This document shows positions 8,970 to 13,190 of a DNA stretch of 64,000 nt, in pieces. This DNA is from a virus. Both the position numbers and the translations under genes were made by a program. The notes under the pieces were generated by a model. The model was not told the origin of the DNA. It worked only from the letters and a program-made list of their open reading frames with translations, and did no database searches. The stretch is taken from positions 1 through 64,000 of IMG/VR virus record IMGVR_UViG_3300003323_001359. One strand, 5' to 3'. Every line of letters starts with the position of its first letter. The stretch's first letter is position 1.

Positions 8970-8999
8970 TGGACAACGCTCGGAGCTGCCTGGTACGGT
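8970..8999 (+). promoter_or_regulatory. Promoter of the tRNA/Y-RNA array, TGGACA-N18-TACGGT
   Basis: Divergent from the 8916 promoter, immediately 5' of the RNA cluster. Confidence 0.6.
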
Positions 9000-9034
9000 T
9001 TCACCATCACCGGTTGAACCCCGGTGGGTAGCAA

Positions 9035-9193
9035 GGGAACCTCCCGGTGCGAACGCACTCGGATACTTCAACCGGAACTCTGGGTTACGGGTTCGAGTCC
9101 CGTCGTCCCGACCTAGGTCGGGACGTGGCTCAACAGGCAGAGCAAGAGTCAGCAAGGACGCCGAGAGCGATCCCTGGTCTCGGGTAGGTTCTC
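9035..9193 (+). ncRNA. Y RNA-like 1 (YrlA-type, permuted tRNA-like domain, Pro-like acceptor)
   Basis: Terminal stem GGGAACCT-CCCG/CGGG-AGGTTCTC; GGTGCG...TACTTC...GGTCT motifs; internal order T arm, loop-closed acceptor (CGGGACG/CGTCCCG), D arm. Confidence 0.8.
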
Positions 9194-9195
9194 GA

Positions 9196-9268
9196 GGGTC
9201 TGTGGCGCAACTGGCAGCGCAGCCGTCTCCAACACGGAAGGTTCCAGGTTCGAGCCCTGGCGGGCCTG
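9196..9268 (+). tRNA. tRNA-Trp(CCA)
   Basis: Cloverleaf; anticodon loop CTCCAAC; T loop TTCGAGC. Confidence 0.9.
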
Positions 9269-9280
9269 CTTAGGAAACGA

Positions 9281-9351
9281 GCCCCACTGGTGTAACGGTA
9301 GCACCTCCGCCCCTCGAGCGGAGAGCGCCGGTTCGATCCCGGCGTGGGGTA
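9281..9351 (+). tRNA. tRNA-Glu(CTC), non-canonical C33/G37
   Basis: GCCCCAC/GTGGGGT acceptor; TCCGC-CCCTCGA-GCGGA. Confidence 0.85.
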
Positions 9352-9502
9352 CGGGGTGTCGGCACGACGGCGAACCCTGCGGAACGGTCCCGGGACCTCA
9401 CCCGCATCAGAGCTCGATGCGTAGCGAGCTTAAGCCAGGGGATGACCCGGCATCGTGCGTAGCGTGGAGAGGGAGGACCCGGTTCGATCCCGGGATGCCG
9501 GC
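9352..9502 (+). ncRNA. Unassigned structured RNA ending in a T arm plus acceptor-like stem
   Basis: CCCGG-TTCGATC-CCGGG followed by ATGCCGG pairing with CCGGCAT (9447-53); several upstream hairpins. Confidence 0.5.
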
Positions 9503-9569
9503 GCGACGTCCCGCACTCTGGGAGCCGGCAGAGGTGGTGTAGCTGGAGCACACCCTCTCAACGCGGCGA

Positions 9570-9644
9570 GGCTGTCTAGCTCAGTCAGGTTAGAGCACCG
9601 CCCTGATAAGGCGGGGGTCGGTGGTTCAAGTCCATCGGCAGCCA
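9570..9644 (+). tRNA. tRNA-Ile(GAT)
   Basis: Cloverleaf; CCGCC-CTGATAA-GGCGG. Confidence 0.92.
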
Positions 9645-9646
9645 CG

Positions 9647-9716
9647 GCGGGAAGTCGGGGGTTCGAGTCCCCTCACCTCCACCTCATGGGGGTGTACCTC
9701 AGCGGCAGAGGACCGC
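9647..9716 (+). ncRNA. Circularly permuted tRNA-Ala-like element (no anticodon loop)
   Basis: GCGG, variable region, T arm (GGGGG-TTCGAGT-CCCCT), CACCTCC-A, linker, GGGGGTG, D arm (CCTC/GAGG), CCGC; G3-U70 and A73 present. Confidence 0.7.
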
Positions 9717-9721
9717 GGCAA

Positions 9722-9793
9722 GCTGGTGTAGCTCAATGGGAGAGCGCTCCCCTGTCCAGGGAGAGGTCGCGGGTTCGATCCCCGTCTCCGGCG
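9722..9793 (+). tRNA. tRNA-Asp(GTC), non-canonical C37
   Basis: CTCCC-CTGTCCA-GGGAG; G73. Confidence 0.88.
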
Positions 9794-9818
9794 CGGGTGG
9801 CGAGTACGACGCCGCCAA

Positions 9819-9938
9819 GTTGAGATCGACAGACCGGGTCCGTCAGGTTCAACTCCTTGGCTGGACGCCGACCGTCTCGTACGCGGTTGAGGGTTCGATT
9901 CCCACCTGGTGGTAGGATCACGGTCGACAGATCTCAAC
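9819..9938 (+). ncRNA. Structured RNA with two T-loops and an anticodon-like hairpin
   Basis: GTTGAGATC/GATCTCAAC stem, GACA/GACA internal loop, GACCG/CGGTC stem; AGG-TTCAACT-CCT, ACCGT-CTCGTAC-GCGGT, GGG-TTCGATT-CCC. Confidence 0.65.
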
Positions 9939-9942
9939 GCTT

Positions 9943-10016
9943 GGCTGCCTAGCTCAGGTTGGCAGAGCGCCCGGTTGAAGCCCGGGAGGTCGCTGGTTCG
10001 AGGCCAGCGGTAGCCA
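9943..10016 (+). tRNA. tRNA-Phe(GAA), G37
   Basis: CCCGG-TTGAAGC-CCGGG; full cloverleaf. Confidence 0.9.
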
Positions 10017-10059
10017 CGAGCTTGACCCGTGCTTGCTGCACACTTGCGCGGTTCAAGCA

Positions 10060-10190
10060 TCACCTCGGTGCGAAGCTGAGCGGGTACTTCCTCGTGGAAT
10101 CGTGGGTTCGAATCCCATCGACCGGCGTGCCGGTCGTTCGCCGCAGCGGCCAAGCGGCATACCCCAACCAGCTGCCAGGTCTCGAGGTGA
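10060..10190 (+). ncRNA. Y RNA-like 2 (YrlA-type)
   Basis: TCACCTCG/CGAGGTGA stem; GTGCG, TACTTC, CAGGTCT; order T arm, closed acceptor, D-like arm. Confidence 0.8.
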
Positions 10191-10201
10191 CCACAACTTC
10201 A

Positions 10202-10349
10202 TCGTCGCGGTGCGCGCGTGAGCGGTTCCTTCACACAACCCTCGCAAGGTTGAGGTGTGGGTTCGAGTCCCACCGACCCCTCGGGGTCGTGGTGTAATCG
10301 GTAGCACGTTACTGAAGACAACACCGCCCATCATCAGGTCTCGCGACGA
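10202..10349 (+). ncRNA. Y RNA-like 3 carrying a complete permuted tRNA (anticodon CGC)
   Basis: TCGTCGCG/CGCGACGA stem; GTGCG, TCCTTC, CAGGTCT; anticodon arm CAACC-CTCGCAA-GGTTG, T arm, closed acceptor, D arm. Confidence 0.8.
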
Positions 10350-10369
10350 CCCACAACTACACACAGGCT

Positions 10370-10455
10370 TCGCCACGGTGCGAAGACCGGCGGATACTTC
10401 AATCGACTGTTAATCGGTAGCGAAACTCCGTCGGTCAGCTCAGGTCTCGTGGTGA
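10370..10455 (+). ncRNA. Y RNA-like 4 carrying only an Asn anticodon stem-loop
   Basis: TCGCCACG/CGTGGTGA stem; GACCGGCGGA/TCCGTCGGTC stem; TACTTC; ATCGA-CTGTTAA-TCGGT. Confidence 0.78.
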
Positions 10456-10457
10456 TC

Positions 10458-10558
10458 TCGTGAGCGACCGGGACGGTGCGCTGACGGACGGCTACTTCAA
10501 CGGCTGATGGTGAACACGCCGCCCGTCGCATCAGGTCTCGTCCCGGCCCAGCTCACGA
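10458..10558 (+). ncRNA. Y RNA-like 5 (minimal scaffold)
   Basis: CCGGGACG/CGTCCCGG stem plus outer TCGTGAGC/GCTCACGA; GTGCG, TACTTC, CAGGTCT. Confidence 0.75.
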
Positions 10559-10561
10559 CCC

Positions 10562-10635
10562 AGCGGGGTAGCGCAGCTCGGTAGCGCGATGGGCTCATAA
10601 CCCACAGGTCGCGGGTTCAAATCCCGTCCCCGCAA
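10562..10635 (+). tRNA. Initiator tRNA-fMet(CAT)
   Basis: 1:72 mismatch, three G-C pairs in the anticodon stem, loop CTCATAA. Confidence 0.92.
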
Positions 10636-10676
10636 CTCGGTCCCACGTTGACAGGCAGGCGACGGGGGACCGCCCA

Positions 10677-10716
10677 CGAGACCCCGATCACGCCCCGACG
10701 CGTGATCGGGGTCTCG
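10677..10716 (+). terminator. Perfect 17-bp hairpin between the RNA array and Ro60
   Basis: CGAGACCCCGATCACGC/GCGTGATCGGGGTCTCG. Confidence 0.65.
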
Positions 10717-10746
10717 CTCTGTCTGACGAGGAAGGAGCTAGGAACG

Positions 10747-12459
10747 ATGGCAGGATTCAACAAGGTGTCGGCTCAGCCGCGACGGCTGGCGGCCAGCGGG
10801 CCGCTGCGCACCGTGAGCGACGTCTCGGACACCGTCACCCACGAGAGCGCTCCCGGCTTCCAGCGCGACGCGCAGTCCGAGCTGTTCCTGCGCGCGACCA
10901 CGCGCTTCGTCGGTGAGAGGGCCTTCTACGAGACCGCGGACGCCGGTACCGACCGGCTGCGTGAGCTCGTGAGCCAGCTCGCCGTCGACGACGAGACGTG
11001 GCCGTGGGTGCGGGTCTTCCTCTCGTGGCTGCGCGGTCCGGGCAACATCCGCACCGCGTCGATCCTGCTCGCCGCGGAGGCCGTGCACTCGCGGCTCGCG
11101 GCCGGCAAGCTGGGAGACGGCAACCGTGAGCTGATCACATCGGTGCTGCAGCGACCGGACGAGCCGGGTGAGATGATCGCCTACTGGCGACACCGGTTCG
11201 GGGTCAAGCGGAGCGACGGCACGATCATCGTCCGCCTGCCGAAGCCGGTCAAGCGCGGCATCGCCGACGCCGCCACGCGGCTCTACGACGAGGCCGCGTT
11301 CCTGCGCTACGACGGCGAGGGCAAGGCGGTCCGGATCGGTGACGTGCTGGAGCTGACCCACGCCGACGTCCGCGTCTCGAGCGAGGAGCGCACCTGGCAA
11401 GACGACGTGTTCCGGTGGGCGATCACCGCGCGTCGAGGCCGCGACGCGGAGCCCCCGGAGTCCCTGACCCGGATCCACCTGCGGCACGTCCTGTCCCGGT
11501 ACGAGCCCGACCAGCGCCACGCGCTCGCGAGGAGCGCGCTCGACGGCAGCCAGGTCTCCCTGGACCTGATCCACGGCGCGATGGCCGGTCAGTGGGAGTG
11601 GCTCAAGCCGTGGCTCGGTGAGCGACCGACCGAGGTGACGCCCCTGACCGACGCCGAGATCTGGCAGCTCGCGCTGCCGACCATGGGGTACATGGCCCTG
11701 CTTCGCAACCTGCGGAACCTGGACCAGGCCGGCGTCCCGGATCCCGTGGTCGCGCCGGTGATCGCGCGCCTCGCCGACCCGGAGCAGGTCGCGAGGAGCC
11801 GTCAGCTGCCGTTCCGGCTCTGGTCCGCGTACCAGGAGGTCTCGTCCCTGCGGTGGGGCCACGCCCTGGAGCAGGCCCTGAACCACTCGCTGCGGAACGT
11901 GCCGGTCCTCGATGGCCGGACGCTCGTGCTCGTCGACGTCTCGGACTCGATGACGTGGGGCAAGCTGTCCGGGAGCTCCAAGATGGACTACGCGACCGCG
12001 GCCGCGATCTTCGGTCTCGCGCTGAAGATCCGCAACCCGGGAGGCGTCGACCTGTGGGGCTTCGCGAACCAGCAGTTCCACGTCACCGGCGTCGACGCCG
12101 GCTCGAGCCTGCTTCGGATGGTTGAGGCGTTCCGTCGGCAGCAGGGACGGGTCGGCGGCGGCACCGAGATCGCCCGGGCGATCCGGGAGACGCTGCGAGA
12201 CGACCACGCCCGCGTGATCATCCTCACCGACATGCAGACGTTCGGTGGGAACCACTGGCAGGTCGGTGACGTCGACACCGCCGCGCCGCGGGACATCCCG
12301 ATCTACGCGTTCAACGTCGCCGGCTACAAGAGCTCGGCGATGCCGGTTCAGCTGGGCAACAACCGTCACGAGCTCGGTGGCCTCACTGACGCGACGTTCG
12401 GCCTGATCCGGATCCTTGAGGCTGGGCAGGCAGGGCGGTGGCCGTGGGAGCTGAGCTGA
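10747..12459 (+). CDS. Ro60/TROVE-domain RNA-binding protein with C-terminal vWA domain
   Basis: RDAQSELF, LQRPDEPGE, PKPVKRGIADA, DVLELTH, MGYMALLRNLRN, SRQLPFR, vWA MIDAS DVSDSM, GGTEI, IILTDMQ; ATG 10747 after GAAGGAG. Confidence 0.93.
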   Translation: MAGFNKVSAQPRRLAASGPLRTVSDVSDTVTHESAPGFQRDAQSELFLRATTRFVGERAFYETADAGTDRLRELVSQLAVDDETWPWVRVFLSWLRGPGNIRTASILLAAEAVHSRLAAGKLGDGNRELITSVLQRPDEPGEMIAYWRHRFGVKRSDGTIIVRLPKPVKRGIADAATRLYDEAAFLRYDGEGKAVRIGDVLELTHADVRVSSEERTWQDDVFRWAITARRGRDAEPPESLTRIHLRHVLSRYEPDQRHALARSALDGSQVSLDLIHGAMAGQWEWLKPWLGERPTEVTPLTDAEIWQLALPTMGYMALLRNLRNLDQAGVPDPVVAPVIARLADPEQVARSRQLPFRLWSAYQEVSSLRWGHALEQALNHSLRNVPVLDGRTLVLVDVSDSMTWGKLSGSSKMDYATAAAIFGLALKIRNPGGVDLWGFANQQFHVTGVDAGSSLLRMVEAFRRQQGRVGGGTEIARAIRETLRDDHARVIILTDMQTFGGNHWQVGDVDTAAPRDIPIYAFNVAGYKSSAMPVQLGNNRHELGGLTDATFGLIRILEAGQAGRWPWELS

Positions 12460-12638
12460 GGTGCACGGTCTGGTGCGCCGGCGGCTGCTCGTTCCCGAGG
12501 TGCCAGGTGGAGGTTCACCCATCGCTCACCCCGGGACGGCTTGAGGTGGGCCGCCGTCGGTACGGGCGGCGGCGTCGTCGGGGACGGCACCGCCTCGGGT
12601 TCTGGTCGTGGCTCCTGCGACGCGTGAGCCGCTGGTAG
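12438..12638 (+). CDS. Possible small Cys/Arg-rich protein
   Basis: Fills the gap after Ro60; weak support. Confidence 0.3.
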   Translation: MAVGAELRCTVWCAGGCSFPRCQVEVHPSLTPGRLEVGRRRYGRRRRRGRHRLGFWSWLLRRVSRW

Positions 12639-12737
12639 GCGAGCCTCACCACGTAGTATAATAGTTCCAGCGTAGAGATGGTGGGGTCGGGACAGCCCGG
12701 CCCCATCGTCGTATCCGAGGAAAGGAAGCAGGAAGTG

Positions 12738-13190
12738 ATGAGACAACGAGCCTGGCTGTTCGACGTGGACGGCACCCTCGCCCTGCGAAAGCCCGGCGGT
12801 CGCGGCCCCTACGACTGGGACCGCGTCGACGAGGACGAGCCCAACGAGCCCGTGTTCGCGATCGCTCGTTCCCTGCTCGACGCCGGCGATGAGGCGGTGT
12901 TCGCGTCCGGCCGCAACGAAGTGTGCCACTACGACACAACGTGGTTCATCCACAAGCACCTGTGGGACCGGATGAGCTTCGCGACCGTCGCGGCTCACCT
13001 GCATCTCCGACCGGACACCGACGAGTGGCGCTACGCCAAGGACGTTGACCTGAAGCGGTGGCTGTACCGCGACCAGATCGAGCCGCTCTACGAGATCGCC
13101 GGCGTCTTCGATGACCGCGACCAGGTCGTTCGCCTGTGGCGCGAGGAGCTTCAGCTGCCGACGTTTCAGGTATCGAACGGTAACTTCTAG
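12738..13190 (+). CDS. HAD-family polynucleotide 3'-phosphatase (PNKP/PseT C-terminal-like)
   Basis: FDVDGTLA, PYDW, SGR, LHLRP...KDVDLK, VFDDRDQVV, FQV..GNF. Confidence 0.88.
   Translation: MRQRAWLFDVDGTLALRKPGGRGPYDWDRVDEDEPNEPVFAIARSLLDAGDEAVFASGRNEVCHYDTTWFIHKHLWDRMSFATVAAHLHLRPDTDEWRYAKDVDLKRWLYRDQIEPLYEIAGVFDDRDQVVRLWREELQLPTFQVSNGNF

What the first reader, a model, noticed from the sequence alone, without database searches (positions are those of the whole stretch)
9035..13190. Phage Ro60 with a five-member modular Y-RNA array, tRNAs and an RNA end-healing phosphatase (top candidate system)
Seen: five RNAs (9035-9193, 10060-10190, 10202-10349, 10370-10455, 10458-10558) share one scaffold. 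Each has a terminal stem of different sequence but conserved pairing ending in CG, then 5' GTGCG opposite 3' GGTCT, a second co-varying stem, and T(A/C)CTTC. Each carries different cargo: a permuted T/acceptor/D module (1 and 2), a whole permuted tRNA with anticodon (3), a lone Asn anticodon hairpin (4), or only a short loop (5). They are interleaved with six tRNAs behind one promoter and lie directly upstream of Ro60 and a PNKP-type phosphatase. Known: bacterial and phage Ro60 genes neighbour YrlA RNAs with a permuted tRNA-like domain and are linked to RNA repair; to my recollection one or two Y RNAs per locus is usual. Inference: Ro60 is a chassis displaying interchangeable tRNA-mimic payloads, a programmable decoy/tether kit against tRNA-targeting defences.
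Basis: partly seen in the sequence, partly recalled or inferred. Interest (0 to 1): 0.92.

Follow-up and report, generated by a model that had tools for sequence, protein, structure and literature searches.

The report
Phage Ro60 with five Y RNAs
An uncultured actinobacterial phage carries the gene for the RNA-binding ring protein Ro60 behind five small partner RNAs ("Y RNAs") that share one docking helix and carry different tRNA-like heads. The same multi-RNA layout is normal beside Ro60 in other actinophages and in actinomycete chromosomes, so it is real and under-described but not unique to this phage.

Summary
Exactly five RNAs in the 64-kb window share a two-helix scaffold: GGUGCG on the 5' strand, GGUCUC on the 3' strand, and U(A/C)CUUC. 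All five lie with six tRNA genes upstream of a Ro60 (TROVE+vWA) gene and a stand-alone PNKP-type phosphatase gene.

A covariance model built from Y4 and Y5 alone recovered Y1-Y3. On 26 homologues, 19 of 20 pairs show compensatory changes.

These are divergent YrlA/YrlB-type Y RNAs. A five-member array is not exceptional:
- 14 other actinophage Ro60 loci carry 2-7 such RNAs.
- 80 actinomycete chromosomal Ro60 loci carry mostly 2-3, up to 5.

Not found described in the papers I could search: many heads carry a hairpin that follows anticodon-loop rules (U33, R37, A38, and the 36/37 coupling). Its "anticodon" triplet changes between close species.

The anti-defence decoy reading is untested and is weakened in three ways:
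- The same head classes occur in bacteria.
- The phosphatase is an insertion that is absent from the closest relative.
- The held genome (about 70% complete) shows no RtcB, PF09414-type ligase or kinase.

Expression and Ro60 binding could not be tested.

Earlier notes of this scan describe similar multi-RNA arrays beside Ro60-like genes in other phages.

The parts
8970..8999 (+). Promoter-like site (TGGACA, 18 nt, TACGGT) in front of the RNA array
   Evidence: Only match to TTGACN-N16-19-TAnnnT on the + strand of the whole window. A similar TGGACA...GGTAATGT stands before the array of L003. Function is inferred.
9035..9193 (+). Y1: YrlA-type Y RNA. Scaffold, small V hairpin, T arm (9087-9103), 9-bp closed acceptor-like hairpin (9104-9125), D arm (9128-9143).
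   Evidence: R2 33.9 bits, E 2e-6, not in the training set. Rfam YrlA 33.6 bits over the full model length. Fold.
9196..9352 (+). tRNA-Trp(CCA) 9196-9269 and tRNA-Glu(CUC) 9281-9352
   Evidence: ARAGORN and Rfam tRNA, 52.8 and 51.6 bits.
9353..9569 (+). Unexplained spacer RNA A. Holds an acceptor/T-arm minihelix-like piece (about 9448-9509) and a D-arm-like hairpin (about 9528-9560). No Y scaffold.
   Evidence: Read from the sequence. Folds are not more stable than shuffles. No R2 or Rfam hit.
9570..9645 (+). tRNA-Ile(GAU)
   Evidence: 66.2 bits.
9646..9721 (+). Element B: free-standing permuted tRNA-like domain (T arm, closed acceptor-like hairpin, D arm, 4-bp closing stem) without the Ro60 scaffold.
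   Evidence: Rfam YrlA model positions 24-84, 27.8 bits, E 0.002. Cloverleaf-like MFE fold. Lies exactly between two tRNA genes.
9722..9794 (+). tRNA-Asp(GUC)
   Evidence: 58.4 bits.
9795..9942 (+). Element C: unexplained, strongly structured RNA. A 9-bp helix, a symmetric GACA/GACA internal loop, a 5-bp helix, and two T-loop-like hairpins inside.
   Evidence: MFE -68.3 kcal/mol, z = -3.9, 0 of 200 shuffles as stable. No family match.
9943..10017 (+). tRNA-Phe(GAA)
   Evidence: 55.7 bits.
10060..10190 (+). Y2: YrlA-type Y RNA. Scaffold, 4-bp V hairpin, T arm (10102-10118), 7-bp closed hairpin (10119-10136), D-like arm (10140-10158).
   Evidence: R1 29.4 bits and R2 50.8 bits. Fold.
10202..10349 (+). 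Y3: YrlA-type Y RNA with an anticodon-arm mimic (10236-10252, loop CUCGCAA), a 5-nt variable loop, T arm, closed hairpin and D arm.
   Evidence: R1 39.2 bits and R2 57.1 bits. Partial Rfam tRNA match at 27.7 bits..
10370..10455 (+). Y4: short Y RNA whose only head is an anticodon-arm mimic (10402-10418, loop CUGUUAA).
   Evidence: Seed of R1. Fold..
10458..10558 (+). Y5: short Y RNA (core 10468-10546) with an extra 8-bp outer helix and a small irregular hairpin head.
   Evidence: Seed of R1. Fold.
10562..10636 (+). tRNA-Met(CAU) with initiator-like features (1:72 mismatch, GGG/CCC in the anticodon stem).
   Evidence: 61.4 bits; the alignment shows the mismatch.
10678..10715 (+). Perfect 16-bp hairpin between the RNA array and Ro60. 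No U tract. Role unknown (terminator, attenuator or processing site).
   Evidence: Fold. The terminator scan found nothing.
10747..12459 (+). Ro60 (TROVE ring plus vWA/MIDAS domain), 570 aa.
   Evidence: PF05731 47.6 bits and phrog_850 9.5e-37 over residues 24-567. PDB 9KOP/9L5Y phage phiLo Ro60 at E 2.7e-24 and 2NVO Rsr. D397, S399 and S401, consistent with a DxSxS MIDAS motif, are invariant among 8 homologues.
12738..13190 (+). Stand-alone PNKP-type HAD phosphatase (150 aa), with its own TATAAT at 12657-12662. A neighbour, but not a conserved part of the module.
   Evidence: PF25109 122 bits. Aligns to Pnkp1 4XRP and to the T4 Pnkp 1LTQ phosphatase domain, with DVDGT. Absent from all other Ro60 loci and from the closest relative L002.

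Best explanation
This is a phage copy of the actinobacterial Ro60/Y-RNA module, fused to a tRNA operon.

One transcript probably starts near 9006. It would carry five Y RNAs, six tRNAs and three other structured RNAs, and host tRNA-processing nucleases would cut it into pieces. That step is inferred.

Each Y RNA closes its two ends into a helix. The base of that helix, G-C, G.U, a 1x1 mismatch and G.U within GGUGCG/GGUCUC, is the docking site for the phage's own Ro60 ring. Docking is inferred from homology to YrlA and metazoan Y RNAs and from motif behaviour.

The other end of each RNA is a head. It is a sealed tRNA look-alike in Y1-Y3, joined by an anticodon-arm look-alike in Y3. It is an anticodon-arm look-alike alone in Y4 and a small hairpin in Y5.

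The heads most likely work as in bacteria. They would make the RNA nuclease-resistant and tether Ro60 to tRNA-recognising or RNA-degrading host factors, such as PNPase in the known RYPER complex. The phage would then field several Ro60 particles with different adaptors for RNA surveillance around its tRNA supply during infection.

I hold the identity as Y RNAs of a Ro60 particle at about 0.9. The adaptor mechanism is much less certain.
For: - Shared scaffold: 5 hits against 0.16 expected. Models recognise members they were not trained on.
- Covariation on 26 homologues: 87.8% of cells paired, against 55% after shuffling and about 40% with slid partners. 19 of 20 pairs show compensatory changes.
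- Association with Ro60: 34 of 35 hits in 9 phage loci lie on the Ro60 strand beside the gene.
- Of 80 loci fetched by a loose 5' motif alone, exactly the 5 with model hits have Ro60 directly downstream.
- 180 of 181 hits in 80 actinomycete loci lie within about 650 nt upstream of Ro60.
- The members of one array are not recent copies: stem 1 identity is 0.39 within a genome and 0.32 between genomes. They nevertheless keep the same motif: 0.91 within and 0.71 between. That is what a shared protein partner predicts.
- The motif resembles GGUCCGA and GNCGAA. UACUUC contains the conserved YUAY/UA of YrlA (PMC4201824; 10.1101/312249).
- Y1 matches Rfam YrlA end to end.
- A phage Ro60 binding two phage Y-like RNAs and host PNPase has been shown for phiLo (PMC12135203).
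Against: - No expression or binding data exist. No RNA run holds the stretch.
- No hit reaches Rfam's gathering score of 69 bits.
- Y3 and Y5 lack the AA of CGAA.
- PNPase tethering is shown only for Deinococcus, Salmonella and phiLo, whose Y RNAs differ from these.
- The adaptor partner of any YrlA head is still unknown in the literature.
- The 16-bp hairpin before Ro60 leaves open whether the RNAs and the protein are co-transcribed.
Confidence: 0.55

Rival explanations
1. Decoy or sponge kit. The tRNA-like and anticodon-arm heads, held on Ro60, bait tRNA-targeting host nucleases (VapC, MazF, PrrC-type) or tRNA-modifying enzymes. The phage's own tRNAs then keep translation going.
For: - The hairpins before the T arm obey anticodon-loop rules. 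In phage loci U33 is found in 23 of 26, R37 in 21 of 26 and A38 in 25 of 26, much as in 62 real tRNAs of the same loci.
- They keep the tRNA 36/37 coupling: G36 goes with G37 in 18 of 19, and other bases at 36 with A37 in 64 of 81 (permutation p < 5e-5).
- Among eight Lentzea orthologues that are 93% identical, the changes pile up in the 'anticodon' triplet while the loop frame stays.
- The phage sits in a tRNA operon, and two of its tRNAs have odd loops, C33 in Glu and C37 in Asp. Phage tRNAs are proposed to evade anticodon nucleases (PMC10264068).
Against: - The same head classes and the same loop rules occur beside chromosomal Ro60 in 80 actinomycetes, so the design is not a phage counter-measure in origin.
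- In Lentzea the stem stays fixed while the triplet changes, and other unpaired positions vary as well. Neutral drift of unconstrained loop bases is not excluded.
- The hairpin sits at the variable-arm position of the tRNA-like fold, not at its anticodon end.
- The phosphatase is not conserved with the module, and no RtcB, PF09414-type ligase or kinase was found.
Confidence: 0.2
2. The heads have no partner of their own. They are compact, nuclease-resistant caps, as Chen et al. 2014 considered, on RNAs whose only job is to gate or stabilise Ro60. The multiplicity only raises dosage.
For: - Chen et al. 2014 discuss this for YrlA (PMC4201824).
- Y5 and many short members carry no tRNA-like part yet keep the scaffold.
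- The triplet is free to vary.
Against: - It does not explain why loop positions 32, 33, 37 and 38 and the 36/37 coupling are kept.
- It does not explain why each array keeps several different head classes across distant genomes.
- It does not explain why the D and T stems of YrlA are nearly invariant (PMC4201824).
Confidence: 0.15
3. Non-functional debris. The elements are decayed tRNA dimers or processing spacers of the tRNA operon that merely resemble Y RNAs.
For: - YrlA is thought to derive from dimeric tRNA transcripts (10.1101/312249).
- ARAGORN miscalls several homologues as tRNAs.
- Unexplained tRNA-like pieces A, B and C lie in the same operon.
Against: - Compensatory changes occur in 19 of 20 scaffold pairs.
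- The link to Ro60 is strict across phages and bacteria.
- The motif is kept within arrays although the stems have diverged to near-random.
Confidence: 0.05

Closest known systems
YrlA and YrlB Y RNAs with Rsr/Ro60 (Salmonella Typhimurium, Mycobacterium smegmatis, mycobacteriophages; Rfam RF02553; Chen et al. 2014, PMC4201824; structure in 10.1101/312249)
   Same: - Encoded next to Ro60 on the same strand.
- The ends pair into a helix with a CGAA-type motif on the 5' strand.
- A conserved UA (YUAY) lies where the head begins.
- The head is a permuted tRNA mimic: T arm, closed acceptor-like hairpin, D arm.
- Short partners without the full mimic exist, including YrlB-like forms with a T arm directly after ACUUC.
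   Different: - There are five members here instead of the two described.
- Both strands of the docking helix are conserved (GGUGCG/GGUCUC), whereas only the 5' strand is recognisable in Salmonella and M. smegmatis.
- The 'V' hairpin behaves as an anticodon-arm mimic.
- The RNAs are interleaved with real tRNA genes.
- All scores lie below Rfam's gathering cut-off.
Thermus phage phiLo Ro60 with Yrl1 and Yrl2 (PMC12135203; PDB 9KOP, 9L5Y)
   Same: A phage Ro60 with phage-encoded Y-like RNAs upstream of the gene. It is the best PDB match of this Ro60 (E 2.7e-24).
   Different: phiLo has two RNAs and no tRNA-like heads are described for them. Binding to Ro60 and to host PNPase was shown there and could not be tested here.
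Deinococcus radiodurans Rsr-Yrn1-PNPase (RYPER)
   Same: A Y RNA acts as a tether between the Ro60 ring and an effector. Several small RNAs are encoded upstream of rsr.
   Different: It is a different Y RNA lineage with the arms in another orientation. A PNPase link here is pure inference.
T4 Pnkp/Rnl1 tRNA repair and the Pnkp1-Rnl-Hen1 system
   Same: The neighbouring gene is a homologue of their HAD phosphatase domain, with DxDxT.
   Different: It has no kinase domain. No RtcB, PF09414-type ligase or kinase was found in the 78 kb held, and the T4 Rnl1-type search was uninformative. The gene is missing from every other Ro60 locus examined.
Phage and mycobacterial tRNA arrays proposed as anti-defence (PMC10264068; PMC12803027; PMC5966550)
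   Same: Y RNAs and Ro60 sit inside or beside tRNA arrays in this phage, in Atuin, LuckySocke and L003, and in some actinomycete chromosomes.
   Different: The three of these papers that I could search do not mention Ro60 or Y RNAs.

Membership tests
Y RNA of the YrlA/YrlB kind | Encoded within about 4 kb of a Ro60 orthologue, on the same strand | tested here: met
   All five lie 190-1710 nt upstream of Ro60 on the + strand.
Y RNA of the YrlA/YrlB kind | 5' and 3' ends pair into a stem that carries the Ro60-binding motif (GNCGAAN0-1G, compare GGUCCGA) | tested here: met
   GGUGCGAA(G/C) in Y1, Y2 and Y4. GGUGCGCG in Y3 and GGUGCGCU in Y5, which lack the AA. The helix is supported by covariation. 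The first G of GNCGAA is U here.
Y RNA of the YrlA/YrlB kind | Conserved YUAY/UA at the start of the V region | tested here: met
   UACUUC in Y1, Y2, Y4 and Y5; UCCUUC in Y3. It was found in 66 of the 67 phage homologues listed.
YrlA (RF02553) | tRNA-like domain with the T arm 5' of the D arm and a closed acceptor-like hairpin between them | tested here: met
   Present in Y1, Y2 and Y3. Absent from Y4 and Y5, which are therefore not YrlA but short YrlB-like partners.
YrlA (RF02553) | Score at or above Rfam's gathering threshold (69 bits) | tested here: not met
   Y1 scores 33.6 bits. Y2-Y5 give no YrlA hit at E up to 10. I file them as divergent relatives, not as curated members.
Y RNA (any) | Physically bound by Ro60 and present as a discrete small RNA | not testable with these tools
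   No RNA run holds the stretch. The only indirect support is that the motif is kept within arrays.
Ro60/TROVE | TROVE (HEAT-repeat ring) domain followed by a vWA domain with a MIDAS motif | tested here: met
   PF05731 at 47.6 bits against a cut-off of 23. The vWA Pfam hits are below cut-off, but the alignment to phiLo Ro60 covers residues 301-563. D397, S399 and S401 are invariant, consistent with a DxSxS MIDAS motif.
Polynucleotide kinase-phosphatase (T4 Pnkp type) | HAD phosphatase domain with the DxDxT nucleophile motif | tested here: met
   PF25109 at 122 bits. DVDGT aligns with DLDGT of Pnkp1.
Polynucleotide kinase-phosphatase (T4 Pnkp type) | P-loop 5'-kinase domain, and a partner RNA ligase | tested here: not met
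   The protein is 150 aa and consists of the phosphatase domain only. No AAA_33, RtcB or PF09414 hit in the 78 kb held. The PF09511 search was uninformative. The record is about 70% complete.
tRNA (RF00005), for the Y3 head | Full cloverleaf at or above 29 bits with an open acceptor end | tested here: not met
   Only a partial match, model positions 10-63 at 27.7 bits. The acceptor is a closed hairpin.
Two-piece (permuted) tmRNA, for element B | Acceptor piece plus a coding piece with a tag reading frame and pseudoknots | tested here: not met
   Only the T arm and acceptor part match, at 29.4 bits against a gathering score of 47. tRNA-Asp starts about 30 nt after the acceptor-like hairpin, so there is no room for a tag frame.

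The most novel reading that the evidence does not exclude
Ro60 in Actinomycetota and their phages is a display platform for anticodon-arm and whole-tRNA mimics whose 'anticodon' identity is switched under selection. The particles would intercept enzymes that read anticodon loops: tRNA-cleaving toxins or defence nucleases, or position-37 modification enzymes. The phage's five-member set, embedded in its tRNA operon, would then be a counter-defence kit.
Probability: 0.15. Interest if true: 0.85.

Novelty: new variant of a known kind. Interest (0 to 1): 0.6.

Why it matters
Y RNAs are known as one or two partners per Ro60, and what their tRNA-like heads do is still open.

This work shows three things:
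- In a whole bacterial phylum and its phages, Ro60 comes with arrays of 2-7 Y RNAs. They share a docking helix and differ in their heads.
- Many heads carry a hairpin that keeps the grammar of an anticodon loop while its triplet changes between close species.
- In some phages and chromosomes the module is welded to tRNA arrays.

This gives testable handles on the function of the Y RNA head: which enzymes read these loops, and whether the triplet matters.

It also flags annotation errors in published actinophage genomes, where Y RNAs are annotated as a tRNA or overlapped by small hypothetical-protein ORFs. Cultured phages with the same arrays (Rabbitrun, Atuin, Satis, LuckySocke) make the experiments feasible.

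Tried and rejected
- MAFFT could not align the 3' halves of the scaffolds. I bootstrapped covariance models from Y4 and Y5 instead.
- My generic two-helix scanner was too lax: it gave 9-22 hits in shuffled windows. I used it only as a lead.
- The 14-base pattern scan of IMG/VR returned mostly chance matches. It became useful only after filtering with the model.
- A single-sequence scan of bacterial genomes with Ro60 found nothing. The alignment-based scan worked.
- Expression: no RNA holder is listed for the stretch. I did not lay reads.
- Relaxed ARAGORN runs gave only overlapping spurious tRNA and tmRNA calls in the spacers.
- Element B as a two-piece tmRNA: rejected, because there is no room for a tag frame.
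- The 'ACC' after the acceptor-like stems of Y1 and element B as an encoded CCA end: not supported, because these bases can pair within longer hairpins.
- RNA repair partners in the phage: no RtcB, PF09414 ligase, AAA_33 kinase or CCA enzyme. The PF09511 control was silent, so that search says nothing.
- The reviews by Sim and Wolin (2018, 2020) and the supplement of Chen et al. 2014 are not held. A mention of longer arrays there cannot be excluded.
- No sequence relatives of elements A, B or C were found in the other loci beyond T-loop matches.

Full report
**What is there**

The window is 64 kb of a 77.9-kb uncultured virus record of about 67% G+C, estimated about 70% complete.

Between 8970 and 12459 on the + strand lie, in this order:
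- a promoter-like site
- Y1
- tRNA-Trp and tRNA-Glu
- spacer RNA A (217 nt)
- tRNA-Ile
- element B (76 nt)
- tRNA-Asp
- element C (148 nt)
- tRNA-Phe
- Y2, Y3, Y4 and Y5
- an initiator-like tRNA-Met
- a perfect 16-bp hairpin
- a 570-aa Ro60 gene

The six tRNAs are confirmed by ARAGORN and Rfam at 51-66 bits.

The protein has a TROVE domain at 47.6 bits and matches phrog_850 ('RNA-binding protein') over residues 24-567. It aligns to the solved Ro60 of Thermus phage phiLo at E 2.7e-24 and to Deinococcus Rsr.

Downstream, after a 278-nt gap that holds a TATAAT, is a 150-aa stand-alone HAD phosphatase of the PNKP type. It scores 122 bits against PF25109, and its DVDGT aligns with the nucleophile motif of Pnkp1 and T4 Pnkp.

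GGTGCG-N9-14-T(A/C)CTTC occurs five times in the window against 0.16 expected.

RNAfold gives Y2-Y5 the same architecture:
- a 7-bp terminal helix of unrelated sequence
- then G-C, G.U, a 1x1 mismatch and G.U, formed by GGUGCG opposite GGUCUC
- an internal loop
- a second helix of about 9 bp
- U(A/C)CUUC
- the head

A covariance model built from Y4 and Y5 alone found Y3, Y2 and Y1 at 39, 29 and 24 bits, and nothing else in the window.

The second model was built without Y1 and run without filters over all 64 kb. It gives five hits of at least 33.9 bits, and the next best hit scores 16 bits.

On 26 homologues from 10 loci, 87.8% of cells are paired, against 55% after shuffling and about 40% when the partners are slid. 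19 of 20 pairs show changes on both sides. The alignment was fitted to the model, so the slid control is the fairer one, and it is clear.

**What they are**

Y1 matches Rfam YrlA over the full model, at 33.6 bits and E 5e-5, below the gathering score of 69.

Three features match the defining features of YrlA (PMC4201824; 10.1101/312249):
- the 5' motif resembles the GGUCCGA/GNCGAA Ro60 contact
- the UA of UACUUC corresponds to the conserved YUAY/UA
- the head of Y1-Y3 has a T arm, a closed acceptor-like hairpin and a D arm

Y4 and Y5 lack the tRNA-like domain and are short partners. Related loci also contain the form with a T arm directly after ACUUC. The M. smegmatis YrlB probe sequence given in that paper implies the same form. 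So these are divergent YrlA/YrlB-type Y RNAs, not a new class.

**The scaffold is tied to Ro60 elsewhere**

Nine phage Ro60 loci with 37-44% protein identity came from IMG/VR contigs and from the cultured phages Rabbitrun, LuckySocke, Satis and Atuin. In them, 34 of 35 model hits lie on the Ro60 strand beside the gene.

A loose 5'-motif scan of IMG/VR gave 80 loci that were mostly chance matches. Exactly five of them had model hits. Those five, and no others, encode Ro60 directly downstream.

Counts per phage locus run from 2-3 in Satis to 7 in L003. Atuin has six, on both sides of the gene.

In the GenBank records none of these RNAs is annotated as a Y RNA. In Rabbitrun they are overlapped by two small 'hypothetical protein' ORFs. 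In LuckySocke the annotated tRNA-Ser(gct), gene 36, lies inside one of them.

**Five is not unusual in this group**

An alignment-based scan returned 80 actinomycete chromosomal Ro60 loci that are 42-49% identical to the phage protein. That is as close as the other phage Ro60s are.

The model gave 181 hits in these loci. 180 of them are on the Ro60 strand, within about 650 nt upstream of the gene.

Counting the 5' motif per locus gives the following:

| Motifs per locus | Loci |
|---|---|
| 0 | 3 |
| 1 | 5 |
| 2 | 30 |
| 3 | 32 |
| 4 | 8 |
| 5 | 2 |

The same head classes recur: the full mimic with or without the extra hairpin, a T arm only, a hairpin only, and a short head.

The phage array is therefore an expanded version of the host-type locus, mixed with tRNA genes. 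Some chromosomal loci (L137, L156, L188, L145) also have 20-28 tRNA genes directly upstream of the Y RNAs.

In the papers I could search, only two Y RNAs per locus are described: YrlA and YrlB, or Yrl1 and Yrl2. The three tRNA-array and phage-tRNA papers I searched do not mention Ro60. The two Wolin-lab reviews are not held.

Earlier notes of this scan report arrays of four to ten similar RNAs beside Ro60-like genes in unrelated phages. I did not check them.

**Evidence for a shared protein partner**

Within one genome the terminal stems are as different as they are between genomes: identity is 0.39 within and 0.32 between. The members are therefore not recent duplicates.

The 12 motif bases are 0.91 identical within a genome and 0.71 between genomes. 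There are genome-specific variants such as GGUGCG/GAUCUC in L067, GGGGUA/GAUAUC in L004 and GAUGCG/GUUC(A/C)C in Rabbitrun. This fits co-adaptation of each array to its own Ro60. Binding itself is not shown.

**The heads**

Of 67 phage Y RNAs, 45 have a T arm. Of those 45, 26 have a hairpin with a 5-bp stem and a 7-nt loop, placed 3-7 nt before the T arm. The spacer is often AGGUC(G), which looks like a tRNA variable loop. The search rule set only the geometry, not the loop sequence.

The loops have U at position 2 in 23 of 26, a purine at position 6 in 21 of 26, and A at position 7 in 25 of 26. This is close to the 62 real tRNAs of the same loci. The 77 bacterial loops behave the same way.

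The loops also keep the tRNA coupling between positions 36 and 37. G36 is followed by G37 in 18 of 19 cases. Other bases at 36 are followed by A37 in 64 of 81 cases (permutation p < 5e-5).

From general knowledge, not tested here, U36-A37, A36-A37-A38 and G36-G37 are the contexts read by the t6A enzymes, MiaA and TrmD.

The triplets are diverse. In the window they are CGC in Y3 and GUU in Y4.

In eight Lentzea species the orthologous RNA is 93% identical. The differences concentrate in the triplet and in the loop of the closed hairpin, while the stem and the loop frame stay constant. This may be selection for switching identity, or drift of unconstrained bases. Other unpaired positions vary too, so I cannot tell which.

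The 'V' arm of Chen et al. therefore behaves as an anticodon-arm mimic. I did not find this described.

**The phosphatase**

It is a real PNKP-type phosphatase domain, but it is not a conserved part of the module.
- No homologue lies beside Ro60 in any other locus.
- In the closest relative (L002, Ro60 67% identical), Ro60 is followed after about 170 nt by the homologue of the window's next gene. The phosphatase gene, with its own promoter-like site, is therefore an insertion.
- No RtcB, PF09414-type ligase, AAA_33 kinase or CCA enzyme was found in the 78 kb held. The record is incomplete, and one ligase search was uninformative.

**Mechanism**

Shown by computation: a conserved, covarying scaffold that is strictly linked to Ro60, and heads that mimic tRNA parts.

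Inferred:
- co-transcription from 8970-8999, the only such motif on the + strand
- release of the RNAs by tRNA-processing enzymes
- docking on Ro60 through the G.U-rich base of helix 1
- heads acting as adaptors or protective caps, as in the bacterial Ro60-Y RNA-PNPase complex and the phiLo complex (PMC12135203)

The decoy idea remains possible. The loop grammar and the tRNA-operon setting favour it. Against it stand the occurrence of the same design in chromosomes, the variable-arm position of the hairpin, and the lack of a conserved repair partner.

**Verdict**

This is a new variant of a known kind. It matters mostly for the general pattern it exposes, not for this phage alone.

Noticed in passing
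window 9646-9721: A free-standing permuted tRNA-like domain (T arm, closed acceptor-like hairpin with a G.U at its third pair, D arm, 4-bp closing stem). It has no Ro60 scaffold and fits exactly between tRNA-Ile and tRNA-Asp, so tRNA processing would release a tRNA-sized RNA. It matches Rfam YrlA positions 24-84 at 27.8 bits.
   Followed up: partly
window 9795-9942: A strongly structured RNA of unknown kind (z = -3.9). It has a 7-bp hairpin, then a 9-bp helix, a symmetric GACA/GACA internal loop, a 5-bp helix and two T-loop-like hairpins. No family match and no relatives in the other loci.
   Followed up: partly
window 9353-9569: A 217-nt spacer with tRNA-like fragments: an acceptor plus T-arm minihelix with 24 nt in place of the D and anticodon arms (about 9448-9509), and a D-arm-like hairpin (about 9528-9560). 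Not explained.
   Followed up: partly
window 9281-9352 and 9722-9794: tRNA-Glu has C at position 33 and tRNA-Asp has C at position 37. Only 4 of 62 real tRNAs in the phage loci lack U33 or a purine at 37, and two of those four are these.
   Followed up: partly
window 10562-10636: The tRNA-Met next to Ro60 has initiator-type features: a mismatch at pair 1:72 and GGG/CCC in the anticodon stem.
   Followed up: no
L011 3274-3347 (Streptomyces phage LuckySocke, gene 36); L010 2834-3191 (Gordonia phage Rabbitrun gp93, gp94): Likely misannotations. An annotated tRNA-Ser(gct) lies inside a Y RNA scaffold, and two small 'hypothetical protein' ORFs overlap Y RNAs. ARAGORN also calls tRNAs inside Y RNAs of L038, L054 and L075 and of about 15 bacterial loci.
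   Followed up: partly
L137, L156, L188, L145 (Micromonosporaceae, Catelliglobosispora, Virgisporangium): Chromosomal Ro60 loci in which 20-28 tRNA genes stand directly upstream of the Y RNA array. This links tRNA array units to Ro60, a link not mentioned in the tRNA-array papers I searched.
   Followed up: no
L146-L151, L158, L163 at about 2814-2952 (eight Lentzea species): The orthologous Ro60-proximal Y RNA is 93% identical, but the three 'anticodon' bases of its hairpin differ in almost every species (GUU, GCA, GUA, UUU, CGG, CCU and others).
   Followed up: partly
window 10191-10201 and 10350-10369; also L003, L004, L006, L038, L075: Spacers after several Y RNAs share a CACAACUUCA-like, C/A-rich motif. 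It could be a processing signal. A looser pattern for it (A[AC][ACT]T[TC][CG]A) hit 9 of 55 3' flanks.
   Followed up: partly
window 12738-13190 versus L002 1857-2023: The phosphatase gene, with its own TATAAT (12657-12662), is an insertion relative to the closest relative, where Ro60 is followed directly by the next conserved gene.
   Followed up: yes
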